Below are positions 1 to 25,248 of a stretch of DNA of 25,248 nucleotides, one piece after another. Position numbers and translations under genes: made by a program. The notes beneath the pieces are model-generated. The model searched no databases. It worked only from the letters and a program-made list of their open reading frames with translations, and had not been told where the DNA came from. How positions within the stretch are numbered: the first letter of the stretch is position 1; the number at the start of each line of letters is the position of its first letter. The stretch is taken from positions 1 to 25,248 of IMG/VR virus record IMGVR_UViG_2609459844_000006; one strand, 5' to 3'. The DNA is from a virus. Lineage: Duplodnaviria > Heunggongvirae > Uroviricota > Caudoviricetes.

Positions 1-1128
1 TCAAATGACCAGTTTTTTCCATTCTTTGCCACGCGTGTCGTTGTAGTGATCAGTCATTACTTTACTGCTATGGCCCAACAAAATTTGTGTGTCGATACCT
101 TGCTCCCTGAATATTCTTTCAGCCAAAGAACGTTGCTCATGGAAAGAAGGGGGAGCACCTTTGCTTGACCAGTCGTAGTCAACTGAGTCACGTGCTTTTC
201 TGAACGCACCAGTTAGAGATGCCGGTTTTACCATTCCGCCTCTTTTGCCTTTCCCTTTGTCGTGGTGATGATGTAGTAAATACGGGCTAAGTATCCTGTC
301 CCGGCATTGAGAGATTACATCTTCAAGAGAAATGTTTAACTTGTTACAACGTAACTTTAAAGGTATTGCGATTTTGGCACCTGTTTTACTTTGTTCAACG
401 AAGAGGTGACCATCTCTGACATCTGAAAACCTCATATTACAAATATCGGCCAACCGCTGTCCTGTGATGATGGCCAGCAGCATTCCTTTCTGTAGAAAGT
501 AATTATCTTTTTTGGCTGCCTGATAGATCATTAGCCATTCTTCGAACGTCAGGCGTTGTCTGGAGACACGGACCTGCGGTTTTTTTGTAGCTTCAGCTGG
601 ATTAAATCCTGCCGGTACTTCTCCTACCTGCTGTGCTTCTTTAAAAACATCCGACAGCACTTTGCGTACAATTTGTGCCATCCGTAGTTGGCCTTTATTT
701 TTGTAGTCATCGAGGATCCCAACTATATCCTTAACTGTTATGCTGTCGATGGACCGCATGCCAAGATGACTTTCGAAAACGTTAAGTGGGGCGTTTTTCT
801 GCTTGAGCGTATTGAGTTTTATCTCTCCAGTTTCGTAACGCTGGTCCTGCAACTTTCGGTACCGAACAATCCATTCGCTTACCGTTGTAGAAAGCCCACA
901 CCGTTTATTAATTTCTTCTCTGATTTTAAAAGTGTGCCGCATTTGTCTTTCTGCGAGCCGGCTATTTGCTTCCACAGCTATTTCTTTAGCAACTTGCTCA
1001 TCTGTTCCTAATCCATGAAATTTACCAGTTACAGGGTGCTTATACCTCCAGTACACCTTGTTGGTCCTCGAATCCAGGAAACATGACAATCCGGGAATGG
1101 TCACGTTGTGTTTTCGAGGTCTAGCCAT
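1..1128 (-). CDS. int: phage tyrosine integrase (lambda-family site-specific recombinase)
   Basis: 375-aa ORF; C-terminal catalytic region shows the R...HxxR...Y pattern of tyrosine recombinases (HEQRSLAER, LLGHSS, DHYND). Window begins at its stop codon, so the att site is presumably outside the window. Confidence 0.9.
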   Translation of the reverse strand: MARPRKHNVTIPGLSCFLDSRTNKVYWRYKHPVTGKFHGLGTDEQVAKEIAVEANSRLAERQMRHTFKIREEINKRCGLSTTVSEWIVRYRKLQDQRYETGEIKLNTLKQKNAPLNVFESHLGMRSIDSITVKDIVGILDDYKNKGQLRMAQIVRKVLSDVFKEAQQVGEVPAGFNPAEATKKPQVRVSRQRLTFEEWLMIYQAAKKDNYFLQKGMLLAIITGQRLADICNMRFSDVRDGHLFVEQSKTGAKIAIPLKLRCNKLNISLEDVISQCRDRILSPYLLHHHHDKGKGKRGGMVKPASLTGAFRKARDSVDYDWSSKGAPPSFHEQRSLAERIFREQGIDTQILLGHSSKVMTDHYNDTRGKEWKKLVI

Positions 1129-6383: not shown

Positions 6384-7265
6384 ATGGAAGACAAGCTCTA
6401 CGTTTTTAACTACACACAAAATAGAAATAAGCTTTTTGCAAATTTAATCAGCATTATTGATGGGATTCTTGCCGATGGACATGTGCGGGATGAAGAGGTG
6501 CTATATCTTGATACTTGGCTACTTGAAGCCAACCAAACCATTAGAAATGGTGTTATCAAGAGTCTAAGTGTTAGGGTCTCTAAAATACTGGCCGATGGTG
6601 TTGTTTCTGATGATGAGCGTGGTGAATTAAAACTGCATCTTAATGATATACAAAGACAAATACTCGATATACCCGATGTGGATTTATTCTCCAGTGAGTC
6701 AGATCTGCATCTGTTGAATGGTCTTTGCAAGGGTTTAATATCAGATCGAACCTTAAGTGAAGAAGAAGTGAGATACCTGGACTGGTGGTTAACACAGAAC
6801 GGGGCGCTAAAAAGTAATTATCCAGGAAAGGAACTATACGCTTTAGTAAAAGAGATTCTGAGCGATGGGATCATCACCACTGAAGAAAGTGAAAATCTAC
6901 ACAAGGCGCTGGTAGATTTTACTGGTTGTGACCTTGCAAGCGGCGTCGTAGATGGGCTTTCTACTAAATTACCATTAGATAATACTGCTGAAGTTTCTGT
7001 TGAAAATAAAACATTTTGCTTAACGGGTGTTTTTTTGGCAGGAAAGAGAGCACATGTTGAAGACCTAATTAAAAAGAATAATGGACTGATTTCCAGCGGA
7101 ATCACAAAGAGAATTGATTTTCTCGTAATTGGTACTCTTTCCTCGCGTGACTGGAAGTTCTCCAGTCACGGAAGGAAAATAGAAAAAGCAGTCTCATATA
7201 GAGATGATGAAGGGGCTAAGTTAAAAATCATTTCAGAAGAAATGCTTTTTCACGCTCTACCATGA
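6384..7265 (+). CDS. tandem-repeat protein with C-terminal BRCT domain (function unknown)
   Basis: Start at ATG 6384 with perfect AAGGAGG SD. Four ~45-aa acidic repeats (ILADGHVRDEEVLYLDTWL / ILADGVVSDDERGELKLHL / LISDRTLSEEEVRYLDWWL / ILSDGIITTEESENLHKAL). C-terminus (NKTFCLTGVF..GKRAHVEDLIKKNNGLISSGITKRIDFLVIG..RDWKF..KLKIISEEMLF) matches the BRCT pattern seen in NAD-dependent ligases. AT-rich relative to flanks. Confidence 0.6.
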   Translation: MEDKLYVFNYTQNRNKLFANLISIIDGILADGHVRDEEVLYLDTWLLEANQTIRNGVIKSLSVRVSKILADGVVSDDERGELKLHLNDIQRQILDIPDVDLFSSESDLHLLNGLCKGLISDRTLSEEEVRYLDWWLTQNGALKSNYPGKELYALVKEILSDGIITTEESENLHKALVDFTGCDLASGVVDGLSTKLPLDNTAEVSVENKTFCLTGVFLAGKRAHVEDLIKKNNGLISSGITKRIDFLVIGTLSSRDWKFSSHGRKIEKAVSYRDDEGAKLKIISEEMLFHALP

Positions 7266-9823: not shown

Positions 9824-10739
9824 AATCGTTCAATCGCTGTCGGGGCAAAGGAATAGCATCACCATTCCGGTCCCGTACCTCGATTATTTCTCCGGCGATC
9901 AGCAGGCGCATGCTTTGGGCGCTGTGCTAAACCAGCTCGTGTTCTGGTCTGGTAAATCAGATCTGAATGATGGCTGGTTTTATAAAGAGCACAGCGAGCT
10001 TGCGGCAGAGATTCGCGGCGTGAGTGAAGATCAGGTGCAGCGCCTGGTAAACAAGATTTGTACCCGCTGGCTACCAGGGGTTGTTGAAAAGGCGCAGCGA
10101 CAGGTAAACGGCACGAAAAAGACGCATTACCGTATCAATGGCGAAGCGCTAATCAATGTTTTATTCCCGGCAACGCTGGATTCCGCAGAATCGCGGAACG
10201 GGAAACGCGAAGTCGCGGAACCTATTCCGCAGAATCACGGAACCGAAAACGCAGAATCGCGGAACCCTAACCGCGAAGTCGCGGAACCTATTCTCTATAC
10301 AGATCATTACTCAGATCACCACAAACAGATCATTAACCCCTCTTGTCCGGTTGCGCCGCAACCAGACCCTGAGGTGTTGATCACTGATAACGCCATCCTG
10401 GTTTTAACTCATTTGAACCAGGTAAGCGGCTCCCGGTACCAGAAATCTAAAACCTCTCTGGAAAACATACGTGCCCGTCTGCGTGAAGGTTATACCGTCA
10501 GCGACTTAACGCTGGTGATTGACCTCAAGCATGAACACTGGAACGGCAATGACGTGCAGTATCAGTACATGCGGCCTGAAACTCTGTTTGGGCCGAAAAA
10601 ATTTGAGGGTTATCTGCAAAGCGGGCTCCGCTGGGATAAGAAAGGCCGTCCCCCTCGTGAAAGCTGGGGCGAGAAGAAACATGACCCGATGAAGTTCGGC
10701 CCGGTAGATACCAAAATTCCAGAGGGATTCAGAGGATGA
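9807..10739 (+). CDS. phage replication initiator (O-like; conserved phage C-terminal domain)
   Basis: 310-aa ORF at the O position; internal DNA iterons within the coding sequence as in lambda O; C-terminal region resembles the conserved phage replication C-terminal domain. Confidence 0.65.
   Translation: MSQIFEIVQSLSGQRNSITIPVPYLDYFSGDQQAHALGAVLNQLVFWSGKSDLNDGWFYKEHSELAAEIRGVSEDQVQRLVNKICTRWLPGVVEKAQRQVNGTKKTHYRINGEALINVLFPATLDSAESRNGKREVAEPIPQNHGTENAESRNPNREVAEPILYTDHYSDHHKQIINPSCPVAPQPDPEVLITDNAILVLTHLNQVSGSRYQKSKTSLENIRARLREGYTVSDLTLVIDLKHEHWNGNDVQYQYMRPETLFGPKKFEGYLQSGLRWDKKGRPPRESWGEKKHDPMKFGPVDTKIPEGFRG
10183..10293. repeat. ori-like iterons (five ~18-22 bp direct repeats, core GAATCGCGGAACC / GAAGTCGCGGAACCTATTC)
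   Basis: Direct repeats at about 10183-10199, 10206-10227, 10226-10243, 10250-10267 and 10271-10293 inside the replication gene, encoding the repeated peptide AESRNGKREVAEPIP. Confidence 0.55.
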
Positions 10740-11488
10740 TTGAAAACAAATACTGCCGCGCGCTGGCCGAACTGCGTTCAAAACCAGCTCACGAATTGAA
10801 AGAAGTTGGCGATCAGTGGCGGACACCGGATCTGCTTTTATGGGGTATCAACGCGCTATTTGGTCCATTAGTTCTGGACTTGTTTGCTGACGACGACAAC
10901 GCGAAATGCCCAGCATGGTACACCGCCGAAGATAACGCACTGACGCAGGACTGGTCTGAACGTCTGGCAGAACTGGGTGGCGCGGCTTTTGCCAACCCTC
11001 CATATAGCCGCTCGCAGTACCACGAGAAACAGGCGATCACTGGTATGACGCACATCATGAAGTACGCAGCAACCCAGCGCGAGAAGGGCGGTCGCTATGT
11101 ATTCCTGATAAAAGCCGCGCCGAGTGAAACGTGGTGGCCGGAAGATGCCGATCACATTGTATTCATTCGCGGGCGCATTGGTTTCGATCTGCCAGTGTGG
11201 TTTGTACCTGCTGACGAAAAACAGAAGCCCACCAGCGCGTTTTTTTCCGGAGCCATAGCTGTATTCGATAAGTCATGGCGTGGTGAGCGGTTCAGCTATA
11301 TCAACCGTACAGAACTGGAGGCAAAAGGTCGGGCATTTATGGCGCTGGCCCAATTCGCTGTTGGCAAAGAGCCGACAATTGCAATGCGGCCCCCCAGGAT
11401 CCAGTCATACCATCGGAAACTGAGTCACGAATCTGGCCTCTCGAGGTTGGTCTGGTGTTTAACCAGGTGGAAGGCGTTGACGTATTGA
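10736..11488 (+). CDS. phage Dam-family N6-adenine DNA methyltransferase (3' end uncertain)
   Basis: NPPY motif (AFANPPYS) typical of N6-adenine MTases; ATGA overlap with the replication gene stop. Last ~30 codons look non-protein-like and follow a C6 homopolymer at 11390-11395. Confidence 0.65.
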   Translation: MIENKYCRALAELRSKPAHELKEVGDQWRTPDLLLWGINALFGPLVLDLFADDDNAKCPAWYTAEDNALTQDWSERLAELGGAAFANPPYSRSQYHEKQAITGMTHIMKYAATQREKGGRYVFLIKAAPSETWWPEDADHIVFIRGRIGFDLPVWFVPADEKQKPTSAFFSGAIAVFDKSWRGERFSYINRTELEAKGRAFMALAQFAVGKEPTIAMRPPRIQSYHRKLSHESGLSRLVWCLTRWKALTY

Positions 11489-16358: not shown

Positions 16359-17411
16359 ATGGAAAATACTGTAAAAATAAACAGTATCGAGTTAATCAAC
16401 GCTGATAGCCTGCATTACGTCGCCACCCTCCCGGATAACTCTATTGATCTGATAGTTACGGATCCGCCTTACTTCAAAGTGAAGCCCAACGGCTGGGACA
16501 ACCAATGGAAAGGGGACGAGGACTACTTACGCTGGCTTGATAGCTGTCTGGCTGAGTATGCTCGCGTTCTTAAACCTGCTGGCAGCATTTACCTGTTTTG
16601 CGGTCACCGACTGGCCTCAGACATAGAGATTATGATGCGTGCCCGGTTCAACGTTTTGAATCATATAATTTGGGCAAAACCATCGGGCCGCTGGAATGGT
16701 TGTAACAAAGAAAGCCTGCGTGCGTACTTTCCATCTACGGAACGGATTTTGTTTGCAGAGCGCTATCCTGGCCCGTACACAGGTAAAGAGGATGTTTACG
16801 AAAGGAAAAGCACAGAGCTAAAGCAGCACATTATGACGCCGCTGATTGATTACTTCCGTAATGCCCGTGAATCACTGGGTGTCAGTGCGAAAGAAATAGC
16901 TGAGGCAACCGGAAAGAAAAACATGGCGTCACACTGGTTTGGTGCAAGCCAATGGCAACTACCGAATGAAGTGGACTACAAAAAATTACAGGAACTATTC
17001 ACGCGGATCGCTATCGATAAGCACATTCAGCAGAAGCTTGAACATCCTCACCACCAGCTGGTGGCTACCTACCAGTCATTAAACCGCAAGTATTCAGAAT
17101 TGCTGGAGGAATACAAAATCCTTCGGCGCTGCTTCTCTGTTTCCGCTCTTGTTCCGTATACCGACGTATGGACGCATAAGCCTGTTCAGTTTTATCCAGG
17201 CAAACATCCATGCGAAAAACCTGCCGATATGCTGAAGCAGATCATTAGCGCCAGCAGCAGGCCGGGGGATATCGTTGCCGATTTCTTTATGGGTTCTGGT
17301 TCAACGGTGAAAGCTGCAATAGCACTTGGCCGTCGGGCTATCGGTGTAGAACTGGAAGCAGACAGGTTTATTCAGACCACTGAAGAGGTGGAAAAACTGA
17401 ACAAAACATAA
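16359..17411 (+). CDS. orphan DNA methyltransferase (N6-adenine/N4-cytosine, beta-class motif order)
   Basis: DPPY motif (LIVTDPPYF) near N-terminus and FxGxG SAM-binding motif (FFMGSGST) near C-terminus; no adjacent restriction endonuclease candidate. Confidence 0.8.
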   Translation: MENTVKINSIELINADSLHYVATLPDNSIDLIVTDPPYFKVKPNGWDNQWKGDEDYLRWLDSCLAEYARVLKPAGSIYLFCGHRLASDIEIMMRARFNVLNHIIWAKPSGRWNGCNKESLRAYFPSTERILFAERYPGPYTGKEDVYERKSTELKQHIMTPLIDYFRNARESLGVSAKEIAEATGKKNMASHWFGASQWQLPNEVDYKKLQELFTRIAIDKHIQQKLEHPHHQLVATYQSLNRKYSELLEEYKILRRCFSVSALVPYTDVWTHKPVQFYPGKHPCEKPADMLKQIISASSRPGDIVADFFMGSGSTVKAAIALGRRAIGVELEADRFIQTTEEVEKLNKT

Positions 17412-20363: not shown

Positions 20364-21107
20364 ATGAAAGCCAAAGAATTTTTGAACAGCCATAAACTTG
20401 TGGTTATCAGTGATTTTATAAAAAGCATTGAAGCCATCCCTGAACAGAAATGGCTGCATGACTTTATGCAGGATGAATTAGCCTATCTGATTGAACGTGG
20501 TATGAACTGGGCAAAATTCGATGATGATGTGCCTGCTGAGATGATTCGAAGCGCTGCATGGTTAGTGGCTATGTCTAAAGCCTACTCAGGAAATTATCCC
20601 GTGAAACAGGTAGCCAATCCATCTCAAATAATTCAGGCATGGAGTGTTAAAAAAGATGGCAAACAGTATGCAGCCACTTTTAAAATAGCCATTGATACCA
20701 GTGAGGCTATTGCTGCTGTTGAAGTACTGGGTAAGAAAATTAAAGATGTTATTAATTCATTATCTATCGAAGATGAAATTAAAATTAAAAAATATGAATT
20801 ATCACATCTGACTTCCAGAAGTATGAATAAAGAAATGGTTGAACGTATCAGGCATATAGTTGATAAAGCTGCGAAGCATTGTCTTGATGGCCGGGCTATC
20901 CCAGAACAGAATAATAAAATTTCAGAAGCAACTTTCTGCTCTGTTGAGAGCACCGGCAGCATTGAACAGCAAGCGTTGAGCACTGTACTTGGAAATACCT
21001 TACACAATATTCCAGTCAGTGATGCTTCTTCTGTGGCGGTTGAGTTAGCTCAGGCTGTGAAAGCAGCATTTGATGTGCTGGAAAATAAGAATGCCGCCAC
21101 GCGCTAA
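20364..21107 (+). CDS. hypothetical protein (248 aa), function unknown
   Basis: Start chosen at ATG 20364 (MKAKEFLNSH...); ORF-track start 20265 lies inside the upstream terminator T-run and is unlikely. Confidence 0.45.
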   Translation: MKAKEFLNSHKLVVISDFIKSIEAIPEQKWLHDFMQDELAYLIERGMNWAKFDDDVPAEMIRSAAWLVAMSKAYSGNYPVKQVANPSQIIQAWSVKKDGKQYAATFKIAIDTSEAIAAVEVLGKKIKDVINSLSIEDEIKIKKYELSHLTSRSMNKEMVERIRHIVDKAAKHCLDGRAIPEQNNKISEATFCSVESTGSIEQQALSTVLGNTLHNIPVSDASSVAVELAQAVKAAFDVLENKNAATR

Positions 21108-21453
21108 ACGCCCATGCCGGCACAAGGGATGTGCGGCAATCACCAACGATACCAGCGGGTATTGTGAACAACACCGCCAGCAGCATGCCGGTGATGGCTG
21201 GCGCAACTATCAGGCAGGTAAAAGCAGGCAAGAACGAGGGTACGGTCGGCCCTGGGAAATCATACGGGCGCGCATCCTCCGGCGTGATCAATACCTGTGT
21301 CAGAAGCATCGACGGCAGAAGATAGCGAAGAAAGCGACCAGCGTTGACCACATCATTCCAAAAGCTCATGGCGGCACTGATGACGATTCCAACCTAGAGT
21401 CGTTATGCTGGGAATGCCACAGAGCGAAGACAGCAAGAGAACGTATTCGATGA
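21091..21453 (+). CDS. HNH endonuclease (phage packaging-associated type)
   Basis: Classic HNH motif VDHIIPKAHGGTDDDSNLESLCWECHRAKT plus N-terminal Cys cluster; start assumed at ATG 21091. Confidence 0.75.
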   Translation: MPPRAKRPCRHKGCAAITNDTSGYCEQHRQQHAGDGWRNYQAGKSRQERGYGRPWEIIRARILRRDQYLCQKHRRQKIAKKATSVDHIIPKAHGGTDDDSNLESLCWECHRAKTARERIR

Positions 21454-21538
21454 TAATATTCACTGCTGTAATGCATAAGAACAGTTTCTACATTCATGCA
21501 GATACCGGAAGATAAACGCGCAGCTTAAAGAGTCAGAC

Positions 21539-23869
21539 ATGGCGGCCAGCGTCGCCAAACAACGGGTGGCTGCGGCGGGAAAGGCAGCGGCAGAAGCGGA
21601 GGCACTGGAAGCACTCGGAAAGTCGAAGCTCTCGGATGCTATGCGTCTTATCAGCGCCAGGAACTATGAGATTTCTCTGTCAGCGCGTGCCGCCGCCGCG
21701 GGTACCGCGTTGCTGAACGGTGCACTGGCGATGGTAGGCGGGCCGGTCGGTCTGGGGATTATTGCGCTGGTTTCTGGCGTGACGGCACTGTGGTCTGCCT
21801 ACAGCAAAGCTGAAGAAAAAACGAAAGCCCTGAATGCGGCATTACTGCAAGGCAATAGTGGCGCGTCACTCAGCCTGACCCGGATCCGGGCGCTGAATAA
21901 AAGCCTGGGTGACACGGATGGCTCCATGAAGGCAGTGACGGCCGCGGTTAAGGCCGGGTTCAGCGGCGAGATGCTGGATCGCGTGTCCTCACTCGGTAGC
22001 CAGCTGGAATCACTGGGTGGGAATGCTGATGAGCTGGTCCGACAGCTGTCATCCATCAGTGGCGATCCGATCAAAGCGATGCAGGATGCCACGCAGCAGG
22101 GATACGAATTTAATGCTGCACAGATAGAACAGATTGCCACCCTGGCCCGCCTGGGTAAAACCGCCGAGGCGGTGGCGCTGGTGCAGAAAATCATGCTTGA
22201 TGACGTTGCGGACAAAATGAAGGAGCAACAGCGTCAGACTGAGGAGAGCATTGGCTGGTGGGAGAAGCTGAAGAAAGCTGTTTCTGAAGGGCTTGAGGGC
22301 TACGCTTCAGCGCAGATTGAGACCAGTCGCGCGATGGCGGCCGCGGTGGGGGTGGATATTGATGAGCCCGCCCGAAAGCTCAAAGAGAAGCGGGACGAAG
22401 AGAATAAACAGGAGGAAGACCGGGCTCAGGCCGCCCGTCAGCGCCAGGATGAGCAGAGCAAAGAAATCACCGCCCGGATAAATCTGGCCGCCTGGATCAA
22501 GGCCGGGACGGATAAAACCCGTCTTGCAGCAGAAGCCACCGCCGATCTCAGTACCCGCTATAAGGCCGGAAAAATCACCGCTGATGAGTACGCTTCTGCC
22601 CTGAGAGGGATAGACAAACTCTACGGTGATAAAAAAACCGGGGTGTCCGCCCATCAGGACAGCGAGGGTGTTCGCCGTCTGGCGCAACTGAAGCAACAGG
22701 AAGTGGTGCTGAAAGCGCAGGGGCGTGAAACGGAGCGGATGGGTGAAAGTCAGAAAAAATTACTGGCTTTTGAACAGGAAATCGCGTCTTACGCCGGGAA
22801 AAAACTGACAAAGGCCCAGGAAAGCGTACTGGCTATGCAGGATCAACTGCGTGCCCAGCTTGAAACTAACGCAGCCCTGGAGAAGCAAAACGCACAACGT
22901 AATCTGGCTGTGACGCTTGAAAAACAACTCCGGGATGTCAGGGAGGAAACGGCACGCCGTCAGCAGGAGCAGAATAACGCTGCTGCTCAGGTGACGATGA
23001 GCGACCGGGAATATGAGCAGATGGTCACCCTGCAACAGATCCGTGAGGATTTTGCGCAGAAACAGAAAGCGCTCGATGAGGAGGTAAAAGACCATTCATC
23101 AGTGCTTTACCAGGCACAGACACAGGCGCTTGCCGAAGAAATGCAGAGGCAGACTGAAATCGTCAAAAAAGGCGCCGAAGACAAAAAAGCGGCTGAGGAG
23201 GATTTTGCGGGAGCTGCCGCCGCAGGCATGAAGAACTGGATGGACAAGGCCGGTAACTATGCACAGCAGATAAAGGACGCTGTGTCGAGCGCCATGGACG
23301 GGCTGGCGGATAATATTGTCGCCACCCTTAACGGCAATAAAAGCTCATGGCGTGACTGGGGGACGATGATACTCCAGACCATTCAGAAAATTCTGGTGAA
23401 TGCCGCGCTGGTTAACGGCCTGAAGGCACTGGGCGGATCACTGGGTGGTGCCGGAGGGATCCTGGGAGGGATTGGCAGTGCAATTTCCGGTGTGGTGGGT
23501 AATGCCCGGGGGGGCGTCTATGACTCTCCGGGACTCAGTGCTTACAGCTCTACTGTCGTCGACAGGCCCACGCTGTTTCCGTTTGCCAAAGGGGCGGGAC
23601 TGATGGGGGAAGCGGGGCCGGAAGCGATTATGCCGCTGACCAGAGACAGTAAAGGTCGTCTGGCCGTCACCGCGACGGGAATGGAAGGGACGGGAGGTAG
23701 CGTGGTGGTTAATCAGCAGTTCAGTGTGCACATACAGAATGACGGCAGTAACGGTGAAATAGGCCCCGGCGCGCTGAAGATGGTGTATGAGATTGCCGAA
23801 CAGGCAGCAATGAAAACACTGACTGTGCAGGGGCGTGATGGTGGCAGGCTGAGCGGAGCATACAGATGA
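21539..23869 (+). CDS. tail tape measure protein (lambda gpH-like), probably N-terminally truncated
   Basis: 776-aa Ala/Gln/Glu-rich coiled-coil protein; C-terminal region (GPEAIMPLTRDSKGRLAV ... NDGSNGEIGPGALKMVYEIAEQ ... RDGGRLSGAYR) matches the gpH C-terminus; N-terminus appears to lack roughly the first 80 residues of lambda H. Confidence 0.8.
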   Translation: MAASVAKQRVAAAGKAAAEAEALEALGKSKLSDAMRLISARNYEISLSARAAAAGTALLNGALAMVGGPVGLGIIALVSGVTALWSAYSKAEEKTKALNAALLQGNSGASLSLTRIRALNKSLGDTDGSMKAVTAAVKAGFSGEMLDRVSSLGSQLESLGGNADELVRQLSSISGDPIKAMQDATQQGYEFNAAQIEQIATLARLGKTAEAVALVQKIMLDDVADKMKEQQRQTEESIGWWEKLKKAVSEGLEGYASAQIETSRAMAAAVGVDIDEPARKLKEKRDEENKQEEDRAQAARQRQDEQSKEITARINLAAWIKAGTDKTRLAAEATADLSTRYKAGKITADEYASALRGIDKLYGDKKTGVSAHQDSEGVRRLAQLKQQEVVLKAQGRETERMGESQKKLLAFEQEIASYAGKKLTKAQESVLAMQDQLRAQLETNAALEKQNAQRNLAVTLEKQLRDVREETARRQQEQNNAAAQVTMSDREYEQMVTLQQIREDFAQKQKALDEEVKDHSSVLYQAQTQALAEEMQRQTEIVKKGAEDKKAAEEDFAGAAAAGMKNWMDKAGNYAQQIKDAVSSAMDGLADNIVATLNGNKSSWRDWGTMILQTIQKILVNAALVNGLKALGGSLGGAGGILGGIGSAISGVVGNARGGVYDSPGLSAYSSTVVDRPTLFPFAKGAGLMGEAGPEAIMPLTRDSKGRLAVTATGMEGTGGSVVVNQQFSVHIQNDGSNGEIGPGALKMVYEIAEQAAMKTLTVQGRDGGRLSGAYR

Positions 23870-24210
23870 CAGTGCAACTGAAAACATTTCACTGGTCGCC
23901 CAGAGAAGGGATGAAGATGGCATCAAAGCCGTCTGTTGTCACGGTGAGATTTGGTGACGGGTATTCACAGCGCAGGGCGGCAGGGCTGAATGCGCAACTG
24001 AAAACGTGGTCGCCGGTATTCCGGGTTCAGGGAGAAAGGGAGATTCGCGCCCTGAATGATTTTCTGGATGCGCATGCAGGGTACCGGGCTTTTTTGTGGC
24101 GACCGCCGCTGGTGAACTGGCTGGTCAGAGTGATATGTCCTGAATGGGATGTCAGCAATCTGGGGGGTTACACTGATTTCTCATGCAGGTTTGAGCAGGT
24201 CGTGATTTAA
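23866..24210 (+). CDS. minor tail protein M (gpM-like)
   Basis: 114-aa ORF immediately after the tape measure gene (ATGA overlap), matching gpM size and position. Confidence 0.7.
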   Translation: MTVQLKTFHWSPREGMKMASKPSVVTVRFGDGYSQRRAAGLNAQLKTWSPVFRVQGEREIRALNDFLDAHAGYRAFLWRPPLVNWLVRVICPEWDVSNLGGYTDFSCRFEQVVI

Positions 24211-24324
24211 AGATCGAAGAATCGATCTGATCGATATATTTAATTGAACTTGTTCATCTGCTGGTGATGTTGTTCAGGCGCACGCCATGGTGCGCCTTAT
24301 AAACAAAAACTGAAGGGAAACAAT

Positions 24325-24987
24325 ATGAATAAGTTAGCAGTGGCTGTTCTGGCTATGTCGGTTTCTGGTGGTGTCGGAGTCGCAAATGCGGCAGCGGGCG
24401 ACAGTACGTTTTCTGTTGGTTATGCGCAGATTCATTCTAAAGGGCTAAAGAAAGAAGTTAATGCCACACGTGATGCTGTTAATGCAGTGTCTGACGCTGT
24501 TTATACGTTTGCCGGCCCCCTTCCTGCTGATGTATTCAGTGCTGATGCGGGTAAATATAAAGAGCCGGAAGGTCTTAACGTCAAATATCGTTATGAGTTT
24601 GACGACCGCTGGGGTGTTATTGGATCGTTTACCTGGGCGAGGTCAAAAACATCTGCGTATATTCAACTCGACGACCCGGACAGTAATACTTTTGCAAATG
24701 CTTCTGGCTCAGCTAAGGGGAATTACTTCACCGCCACATTTATTCTCGCTAACCCTGTTGAAACTGACGGCTCGGTGTTTCCAGCACGTATTATGCTGGC
24801 GGATATCTGTACGTGGACATACCGGGGAGATGAGTGCGGGTATGACGGCCCGCCGGTAGCCGATGAATTTGATAAACCCACCTCAGATCCTGCAAAGGAT
24901 CAATGCAGCAGATGTCCTGCAGGATGCAGGCTACGCAACAATATTGCCAGAGCAGGCTTTTTTATCTCCATTAACAAACTTTCCTGA
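24325..24987 (+). CDS. chimeric ORF: Ail/Lom/PagC-like outer-membrane protein N-terminus fused to minor tail protein L C-terminus
   Basis: N-terminal signal peptide and STFSVGYAQ...LNVKYRYEFDDRWGVIGSF match Ail/Lom/PagC beta-barrels; C-terminal ~95 aa (PVETDGSVFPARIMLADICTWTYRGDECGYDGPPVADEFDKPTSD..FISINKLS) matches the lambda gpL C-terminus. Confidence 0.55.
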   Translation: MNKLAVAVLAMSVSGGVGVANAAAGDSTFSVGYAQIHSKGLKKEVNATRDAVNAVSDAVYTFAGPLPADVFSADAGKYKEPEGLNVKYRYEFDDRWGVIGSFTWARSKTSAYIQLDDPDSNTFANASGSAKGNYFTATFILANPVETDGSVFPARIMLADICTWTYRGDECGYDGPPVADEFDKPTSDPAKDQCSRCPAGCRLRNNIARAGFFISINKLS

Positions 24988-25004
24988 CGGTGACGTTATG
25001 ACAA

Positions 25005-25111
25005 AAACAGAACAGGATATTCTGGCGCATGCCGCACAGTGTGCACCGGAGGAATCGTGCGGGTACCGGATGCGAAAATCAGCGCAGGAAACACAGTGCA
25101 GGTGGTGGTGA
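25005..25111 (+). pseudogene. gpK-like tail protein N-terminal fragment (frame lost after ~22 codons)
   Basis: MTKTEQDILAHAAQCAPEESCG resembles the N-terminus of JAB/MPN-type tail assembly protein K; the frame then reads non-protein-like sequence to a stop at 25111. Confidence 0.3.
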
Positions 25112-25248
25112 ACAATGCCGGTATCATCGCCATTGAACCAGCAAGCAGCAACGTACTGCTTAACAATCTGCCTTCTTCTGCAACCACTGACAGAAGTGTC
25201 ACGCTGGTTCAGACCAGTCTGGACGGGAAGACCTGGGTGATTACCTGA
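25039..25248 (+). CDS. unknown C-terminal protein fragment (possibly tail-fibre related), out of frame with the K-like start
   Basis: Open frame ...VQVVVNNAGIIAIEPASSNVLLNNLPSSATTDRSVTLVQTSLDGKTWVIT ending at the window edge; its ATG is probably fortuitous. Confidence 0.25.
   Translation: MCTGGIVRVPDAKISAGNTVQVVVNNAGIIAIEPASSNVLLNNLPSSATTDRSVTLVQTSLDGKTWVIT

What the first reader, a model, noticed from the sequence alone, without database searches (positions are those of the whole stretch)
24325..24987. In-frame chimera of an Ail/Lom/PagC-type outer-membrane protein N-terminus with the C-terminus of tail protein L
A single ORF changes identity mid-way: a signal peptide plus the first beta-strands of an Ail/Lom-family virulence-associated OMP, then the conserved C-terminal region of gpL. 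The junction is near ...SGSAKGNYF/TATFILANPVETDG. This records an illegitimate recombination that brought a lom-like moron into the tail operon and deleted the 5' part of L; the product is unlikely to be a functional barrel or tail protein but could be a secreted fragment.
Basis: partly seen in the sequence, partly recalled or inferred. Interest (0 to 1): 0.5.

Follow-up and report, generated by a model that had tools for sequence, protein, structure and literature searches.

The report
Deletion-fused Lom/tail-L pseudogene in decaying prophage
The odd half-membrane-protein, half-tail-protein gene is real, but it is the scar of one 798-base deletion in a decaying E. coli prophage whose intact relatives carry the two genes side by side, so it is an ordinary relic.

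Summary

The origin story needs correcting. An intact relative (locus L010) has tape measure - M - complete Ail/Lom gene - terminator - complete L - K. It is collinear with the window on both sides of the junction (95-97% and 94% DNA identity). One 798-bp (266-codon) gap with 1-2 nt of microhomology accounts for the chimera. The Lom gene already lay between M and L, as annotated in Salmonella phage Gifsy-2 (M - Lom - sodC - L). Nothing was brought in.

The host element is a heavily deleted E. coli prophage beside the trp operon:
- the head genes are gone;
- the tape measure is truncated;
- K is cut after 22 codons;
- I and J are absent.

A near-identical strain has since lost the first 116 codons of the chimera. 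No other protein among 1.84 billion cluster representatives has this architecture.

The product lacks half the barrel, its C-terminal end and the N-terminal domain of L. It is most likely a non-functional fusion pseudogene.

The parts
21539..23869 (+). Tape measure gene, 5'-truncated (776 aa against 990 aa in relatives)
   Evidence: Pfam TMP_2/TMP_4/Tape_meas_lam_C on the called gene. The window lacks 1627 bp that L001 carries, at 21502-21511.
23866..24210 (+). Minor tail protein M homologue, intact (114 aa)
   Evidence: Pfam Phage_min_tail over profile positions 1-108 of 108, E 4e-32. 95.7% DNA identity to M of L010.
24211..24324 (+). 5' untranslated region of the Ail/Lom moron, with a GC-rich hairpin at 24276-24297 and a ribosome-binding site (AAGGGA) before the ATG
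   Evidence: Collinear with L010 9921-10036. Hairpin -20.3 kcal/mol, z -3.8. The consensus scan found no sigma-70 promoter.
24325..24390 (+). Predicted Sec signal peptide (MNKLAVAVLAMSVSGGVGVANA, AXA cleavage motif)
   Evidence: Read from the sequence. The mature N-terminus of Ail (3qra residue 3) aligns to aa 25. No signal-peptide predictor was available.
24325..24729 (+). Ail/Lom part: codons 1-135 (signal peptide, strand 1, long loop 1, strands 2-3, first half of strand 4)
   Evidence: 100% identical to P0125 residues 1-135. PHROG Lom profile positions 1-83 of 199. Window 21502-24730 aligns to L010 7212-10442 at 96.9%.
24730..24730 (+). Deletion junction: a single A shared by both parents (CA if the L allele was L011-like). 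798 bp are missing relative to L010.
24731..24987 (+). gpL part: codons 147-231 plus stop. This is the complete C-terminal iron-sulfur domain (Cys162/171/194/201 correspond to lambda Cys173/182/205/212). The N-terminal hub domain is missing.
   Evidence: 100% identical to P0003 residues 147-231. Pfam profile positions 116-206 of 206. Lambda gpL 146-231. Domain limits and cysteine ligands from PMC10721106. Cysteine positions.
24998..25065 (+). Remnant of tail assembly gene K: 22 codons, then an out-of-frame deletion junction
   Evidence: Homology to K of L010, L011 and L012 stops at 25065. Weak Prok-JAB hit.
25066..25248 (+). 3' end of an unrelated ORF joined to the K remnant (possibly the end of a tail fibre gene)
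   Evidence: No Pfam or PHROG family. In L001 it is followed by a DUF1353 gene that PHROGs calls a tail assembly chaperone. No DNA match among deposited phages.

Best explanation
The ORF is a fusion pseudogene left by one illegitimate 798-bp (266-codon) deletion in a cryptic lambdoid prophage of an E. coli lineage, integrated beside the yciEFG-trp region.

The ancestor had the order tape measure - M - [Ail/Lom moron with its own terminator] - L - K - I - J. The deletion ran from the middle of beta-strand 4 of the Lom gene to codon 147 of L. It removed the 3' half of lom, the moron terminator and the N-terminal hub domain of L. It happened to be in frame.

Shown here: collinearity with an intact relative, the size, phase and microhomology of the deletion, the pre-existing M-Lom-L arrangement, the surrounding deletions, and later loss of the ORF's 5' part in a sister strain.

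Inferred:
- If still expressed from the moron's signals, the product would be exported by Sec.
- It could not form an 8-stranded barrel. It has about 3.5 strands and lacks the C-terminal ...GYKF end, the type of aromatic end that outer-membrane barrels generally need for assembly (general knowledge, not tested here).
- It could not acquire its [4Fe-4S] cluster in the periplasm.
- It could not join a tail tip. The hub domain is missing, and K, I and J are absent.
- It would therefore most likely be degraded. It has no function.
For: - Intact relative L010 carries TMP(990 aa)-M(114)-Ail/Lom(234)-L(231)-K.
- Window 21502-24730 aligns to L010 7212-10442 (96.9%) and window 24730-25065 to L010 11240-11575 (94.3%). 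One 798-bp gap, in frame, with 1 nt of overlap, or 2 nt with an L011-type allele.
- The gap contains an intrinsic terminator, AAAACCCUC...GAGGGUUUUUU.
- The two halves are 100% identical to intact proteins P0125 and P0003.
- Differences from L010 and L011 are almost all synonymous (27 synonymous to 3 non-synonymous, and 11 to 0). The divergence therefore accrued in working genes.
- The M-Lom-L arrangement is annotated in Gifsy-2 and seen in other Salmonella prophages.
- Context of decay: K cut at codon 22 and out of frame, I and J absent, head genes absent, tape measure truncated.
- Strain GCA_020857475.1, 100% identical elsewhere, has a further 2570-bp deletion that removes M and codons 1-116 of the chimera.
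- The host is E. coli, but 0 of 5426 complete E. coli genomes carry the region.
- No other protein with this architecture was found.
Against: - The deletion is in frame. It leaves a complete signal peptide and a complete Fe-S domain with all four cysteine ligands, so a product can be made. This is expected about one time in three by chance, and the other junctions mapped in the element are out of frame or truncating.
- All nine full copies are identical at the DNA level, so neither selection nor its absence can be measured from sequence variation.
- No expression data were available.
- The exact ancestor (an E. coli prophage with intact lom and L at this site) was not recovered. The closest DNA-level relative is 94-97% identical.
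Confidence: 0.92

Rival explanations
1. One reading: one illegitimate recombination event imported a lom-like moron from elsewhere into the tail operon and at the same time replaced the 5' part of L.
For: In lambda itself lom lies downstream of J, not next to L. From lambda alone an import looks necessary. The junction has only 1-2 nt of homology.
Against: Intact relatives already have the complete Lom gene between M and L. The same 5' untranslated region and hairpin follow the M stop codon. Gifsy-2 and other Salmonella prophages show the same site in use. Divergence from L010 is similar on both sides of the junction (95.2% and 94.3%). One deletion is enough.
Confidence: 0.03
2. The chimera is an assembly or library artefact.
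For: The only other database protein with both Pfam domains (P0077) is an artefact. It carries the peptide VSYTHLDVYKRQ, which I recognise from general knowledge as translated Nextera adapter, between lambda lom and L pieces.
Against: The junction in the window has no adapter sequence. The same DNA is present in at least 9 independent assemblies from three sources. It is also present in a strain with a different upstream structure.
Confidence: 0.01
3. The fusion is a retained, functional exported protein: for example a periplasmic or surface fragment that affects the envelope, or a decoy that interferes with tail-tip assembly or adsorption of incoming lambdoid phages.
For: The ORF is open and in frame. 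It has an intact ribosome-binding site, signal peptide and complete Fe-S domain. Morons are commonly expressed from repressed prophages (PMC7067206).
Against: It was lost in a sister strain. It is confined to one near-clonal lineage with no sequence variation. It has a half barrel without the C-terminal end. Fe-S clusters are inserted in the cytoplasm, whereas Sec exports unfolded chains (general knowledge). Tail assembly is cytoplasmic, so an exported fragment could not interfere with it. No homologous architecture exists elsewhere.
Confidence: 0.04

Closest known systems
Ail/Lom gene between M and L in Salmonella phage Gifsy-2 (STM1042 gpM - STM1043 Lom homologue - STM1044 sodC - STM1045 gpL; NC_010393)
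   Same: A Lom-family gene is inserted at the same site, between the M and L tail-tip genes, on the same strand. The window's parent arrangement (L010) is M-Lom-L.
   Different: In Gifsy-2, lom and L are separate genes with sodC between them. DNA similarity to the window is low: no match in the lom part and about 71% in L. Here the 3' half of lom and the 5' two thirds of L are deleted and the rest is fused.
Lambda Lom / Yersinia Ail / E. coli OmpX (Pfam PF06316, 8-stranded outer-membrane barrels)
   Same: Signal peptide, strand 1 (GDSTFSVGYAQ) and strands 2-3 (GLNVKYRYEFDDRWGVIGSF) match the family.
   Different: Only about 3.5 of 8 strands remain, and the C-terminal ...GYKF strand is gone. 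This subfamily also has a loop 1 about 40 residues longer than in Ail.
Lambda tail tip (hub) protein gpL (PF05100; PDB 8iyk chain L)
   Same: The C-terminal iron-binding domain is complete and about 70% identical to lambda, with all four cysteine ligands.
   Different: The N-terminal hub (HDI) beta-sandwich, which forms the last tail ring with gpJ, is missing (residues 1-146). The partner genes K, I and J are missing or truncated.
Deletion-decayed ('grounded' or cryptic) prophages of E. coli such as Rac, DLP12, e14 and Qin
   Same: Stepwise loss of structural genes by deletion, with strain-to-strain differences in the remnant (PMC6379469). Three nested variants were seen here.
   Different: This is a different element. 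It is related to Salmonella prophages, sits beside trp, and is absent from all 5426 complete E. coli genomes searched.

Membership tests
Ail/Lom/OmpX outer-membrane beta-barrel (PF06316) | N-terminal Sec signal peptide followed by the conserved first strand | tested here: met
   MNKLAVAVLAMSVSGGVGVANA|AAGDSTFSVGYAQ. The mature Ail N-terminus aligns at aa 25. PHROG Lom profile matched from position 1. No dedicated signal-peptide predictor was run.
Ail/Lom/OmpX outer-membrane beta-barrel (PF06316) | Complete 8-stranded barrel (full-length match to the family profile) | tested here: not met
   Only profile positions 1-83 of 199 (PHROG) and 40-76 of 199 (Pfam) are matched. The intact parent P0125 is 234 aa, of which 135 are kept.
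Ail/Lom/OmpX outer-membrane beta-barrel (PF06316) | C-terminal strand ending in an aromatic residue (needed for barrel assembly, per general knowledge) | tested here: not met
   Parents end ...GFIMGIGYKF. The chimera ends ...FFISINKLS.
Phage minor tail protein L (PF05100, lambda gpL) | N-terminal hub (HDI) beta-sandwich domain, lambda residues 1-166 | tested here: not met
   The Pfam match starts at profile position 116 of 206. The lambda alignment starts at residue 146. Domain limits from PMC10721106.
Phage minor tail protein L (PF05100, lambda gpL) | C-terminal domain with four cysteines that bind a [4Fe-4S] cluster | tested here: met
   Cys162, 171, 194 and 201 align with lambda Cys173, 182, 205 and 212. 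Cluster binding itself cannot be tested with these tools.
Phage minor tail protein L (PF05100, lambda gpL) | Encoded within a complete tail-tip module (M, L, K, I, J) | tested here: not met
   K stops after 22 codons. I and J are absent from the window and from the longer loci L001 and L002.
Moron (independent transcription unit inserted between phage genes) | Own promoter upstream and own terminator downstream | tested here: inconclusive
   The intact relative has an intrinsic terminator after lom, and this lies in the deleted 798 bp. The simple scan found no sigma-70 consensus promoter upstream.
Deletion-derived fusion pseudogene in a cryptic prophage | Collinear with an intact relative apart from one internal gap; neighbouring genes also deleted; presence varies among near-identical strains | tested here: met

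The most novel reading that the evidence does not exclude
The in-frame fusion is expressed from the moron's signals in the lysogen and yields a stable exported protein: a signal peptide, a half Lom sheet and the gpL cysteine-rich domain. That protein gives the E. coli lineage some benefit, such as an altered envelope or interference with incoming lambdoid phages. This would be an early case of a new gene born from prophage decay.
Probability: 0.04. Interest if true: 0.4.

Novelty: new member of a known kind. Interest (0 to 1): 0.1.

Why it matters
It matters little for biology. It is a cleanly resolved example of how deletions in a decaying prophage create chimeric reading frames.

It has some practical value for annotation. 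NCBI and UniRef name this protein 'phage minor tail protein L', although 61% of it is an outer-membrane protein fragment and the L hub domain is missing.

It also shows that the M/L junction of lambdoid tail operons is a recurrent insertion site for accessory genes: Lom, sodC, and nearby a toxin-antitoxin pair and a porin. The three nested deletion variants in near-identical strains give a small time series of prophage decay.

Tried and rejected
- Megablast of 23800-25248 against 5426 complete E. coli genomes found no match. The host was identified from the flanking trp operon and NCBI protein names instead.
- The scan of species-representative genomes with the chimera found only distant Lom or L relatives. 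No chimera and no close parent turned up.
- I tried to recover the DNA of the 100%-identical intact Lom allele (P0125):
  - a junction-spanning DNA pattern found nothing in viral contigs;
  - scans of viral and metagenome contigs with the N-terminal 136 aa gave only 37%-identical relatives or a 23-residue fragment.
- The phage collection holds Lom proteins mostly around 40% identical or less to this subfamily; one record in the 60-80% band was not examined. It has no DNA match to the region downstream of the K junction.
- The promoter scan found nothing convincing for the moron.
- P0077 and P0128 looked like further chimeras. P0077 is an adapter artefact and P0128 is an internal duplication of L.
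- I did not run a structure prediction. Mixed-family alignments would be noisy, and a half-barrel model could not decide function.

Full report
**What is there**

The window holds an ORF at 24325-24987 (+) of 220 codons. It lies 114 bp downstream of an intact minor tail protein M gene (23866-24210; Pfam Phage_min_tail, full length). That gene follows a tape measure gene (21539-23869).

- Pfam splits the ORF in two. Ail_Lom matches aa 73-109, and Phage_tail_L matches aa 133-219, covering only the last 91 of 206 profile positions.
- PHROGs agrees. Lom matches aa 1-121, covering profile positions 1-83 of 199. Minor tail protein matches aa 134-220.
- Among solved structures, lambda gpL residues 146-231 align to aa 135-220 (E 1e-37). 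Ail strand 1 and strands 2-3 align to aa 25-39 and 79-107.
- Residues 1-135 are identical to the first 135 residues of an intact 234-aa Ail/Lom protein (P0125). Residues 136-220 are identical to residues 147-231 of an intact Salmonella gpL (P0003).

**It is not an artefact**

The exact protein is encoded on 13 contigs, nine of which were fetched (NCBI, ENA, Logan). All nine have zero nucleotide differences in the ORF. The window itself equals GCA_000703525.1 contig JNPF01000023.1.

A tenth strain carries the same junction behind a different upstream deletion.

By contrast, the only other database protein with both Pfam domains (P0077) contains VSYTHLDVYKRQ. I recognise this from general knowledge as translated Nextera adapter, so P0077 is an assembly artefact.

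**How the chimera arose**

The contig that encodes the closest intact Lom cluster (L010) carries portal, protease, capsid, tail tube, chaperone, tape measure (990 aa), M (114 aa), a complete Ail/Lom gene, a complete L (231 aa) and K.

- Window 21502-24730 aligns to L010 7212-10442 (96.9%).
- Window 24730-25065 aligns to L010 11240-11575 (94.3%).
- The single gap is 798 bp, or 266 codons, so the fusion is in frame.
- The parents share only one A at the crossover, or CA if the L allele was like L011.
- The missing piece holds the 3' half of lom, an intrinsic terminator (AAAACCCTC...GAGGGTTTTTT) and the first 146 codons of L.
- The 5' untranslated region after the M stop codon, including a GC hairpin at 24276-24297, is shared with L010.
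- Divergence from L010 is similar on both sides of the junction (95.2% and 94.3%) and almost wholly synonymous. It therefore accrued while both genes were working.

**The M-Lom-L arrangement is already known**

- The deposited Gifsy-2 genome annotates gpM homologue (STM1042), Lom homologue (STM1043), sodC (STM1044, opposite strand) and gpL homologue (STM1045), followed by K, I and J.
- Other Salmonella prophages show M - Ail/Lom (235 aa) - Sod_Cu - L - K - I (L034-L037).
- L038 shows Ail/Lom directly followed by L.

**Context: a decaying prophage**

The window begins with an integrase (1-1128, minus strand). It continues through a cI-like repressor, replication genes, Dam, RusA, an antirepressor, DUF968, Q, a second methyltransferase, lysis genes and an HNH endonuclease. 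It then jumps straight into a 5'-truncated tape measure gene. Terminase, portal, capsid and tail tube genes are missing (compare L010).

After the chimera, K survives for 22 codons. At 25065 it is joined out of frame to the 3' end of an unrelated ORF. I and J are absent.

Longer loci show that the element ends near a DUF1353 gene, a 502-aa SMC_N/AAA_15 (ATPase-domain) protein and an SRAP gene, then yciE/F/G-like genes and trpA-D. The trp genes are 100% identical to E. coli genomes, and NCBI names the protein as E. coli. Yet none of 5426 complete E. coli genomes has the tail remnant. It is confined to a rare, near-clonal lineage.

Three nested states exist:
- L001 type, with a full tape measure gene.
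- Window type, with a further 1627-bp deletion at an imperfect 10-bp repeat.
- L039 type, with a further 2570-bp deletion that removes the tape measure 3' end, M and the first 116 codons of the chimera. This strain is 100% identical elsewhere.

The chimera is thus not being preserved.

**Likely fate of the product (inferred)**

The ORF keeps a ribosome-binding site, a typical Sec signal peptide (…VANA|AAGD) and about 3.5 of the 8 barrel strands. It lacks the C-terminal …GYKF strand. By general knowledge, outer-membrane barrels need such an aromatic end for assembly.

The gpL part is the complete C-terminal iron-binding domain. Cys162/171/194/201 correspond to lambda Cys173/182/205/212 (PMC10721106). 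It lacks the N-terminal hub domain, which forms the last tail ring with gpJ.

A chain exported through Sec cannot receive a cytoplasmically assembled [4Fe-4S] cluster (general knowledge). The fragment has no partners (K, I, J) and no virion to join. The most likely outcome is a misfolded periplasmic polypeptide that is degraded, that is, a fusion pseudogene.

An in-frame junction is expected one time in three. The other junctions mapped in this element are out of frame or truncating.

A word-indexed search of 5.8 billion proteins and an exhaustive HMMER search of 1.84 billion cluster representatives found hits to either half only, apart from the query's own cluster. The two multi-stretch hits (P0128, P0268) were inspected and do not combine Lom with L; P0128 is an internal duplication of L. 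There is no family with this architecture in intact phages.

**Verdict**

- It is a new instance of a well-known process, deletional decay of cryptic prophages (PMC6379469).
- Interest is low. The practical points are a misleading database name ('phage minor tail protein L') and a tidy illustration of the M/L junction as an insertion site for accessory genes.

Noticed in passing
window 24998-25248: Gene K survives for only 22 codons. At 25065 it is joined out of frame to the 3' end of an unrelated ORF with no Pfam, PHROG or phage-database match. In longer loci a DUF1353 gene (PHROG 'tail assembly chaperone') follows. This is a second large deletion, removing K, I, J and probably most of a fibre gene.
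   Followed up: partly
window 21502-21511 (against L001 577-2203): The window strain lacks 1627 bp that sister contigs carry: the 3' part of a 133-aa ORF, the tail chaperone gene and about 200 codons of the tape measure. The junction lies at an imperfect 10-bp repeat, ATACC(C)GGAAG.
   Followed up: yes
window 21070-21540: An HNH endonuclease gene lies directly before the truncated tape measure gene. Terminase, portal, protease, capsid, connector and tail tube genes of the intact relative (L010) are all absent.
   Followed up: partly
L039 2748 (= L001 2805-5374 deleted): E. coli GCA_020857475.1, 100% identical to L001 over 13 kb, has a 2570-bp deletion with 2 nt of microhomology. It fuses mid tape measure to codon 117 of the chimera. 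NCBI still annotates the resulting 130-aa ORF as 'phage minor tail protein L'.
   Followed up: yes
protein P0077 (ENA, 145 aa): A database protein with both Ail_Lom and Phage_tail_L domains contains VSYTHLDVYKRQ, which I recognise from general knowledge as translated Nextera adapter, between lambda lom and L pieces. It is an assembly artefact. P0130 and P0136 are similar odd fusions of the lambda L C-terminus.
   Followed up: partly
L035-L037 2752-3482; L038 2324-3295; L040 (Gifsy-2) 31238-32400: The tail-tip operon of Salmonella lambdoid prophages holds several accessory insertions. A HigB/HTH toxin-antitoxin pair lies between tape measure and M. A Porin_1 gene lies between L and K. Lom plus sodC lies between M and L. 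The Gifsy-2 Lom homologue is annotated at only 165 aa, against about 235 aa in relatives, so it may itself be truncated.
   Followed up: no
window 24276-24297: A strong 8-bp GC hairpin (AGGCGCAC...GTGCGCCT, -20 kcal/mol, z -3.8) lies 28 bp upstream of the Lom start codon. It is conserved in L010 and has no T-run, so it is not a typical terminator. It may be regulatory.
   Followed up: partly
window 10736-11488 and 16359-17411: The prophage carries two DNA methyltransferase genes: a Dam-family gene in the early region, and an N6_N4_Mtase between Q and the lysis genes.
   Followed up: no
L001 7270-9792: Between the prophage remnant and yciE/F/G-trp lie a 502-aa protein with SMC_N/AAA_15/AAA_21 (ATPase) domains and an SRAP (SOS response-associated peptidase) gene. 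The first could be a defence gene. Only the SRAP region and a short stretch near 7120 (about 16% of the 4-kb query) have about 91% matches in 131 complete E. coli genomes.
   Followed up: no
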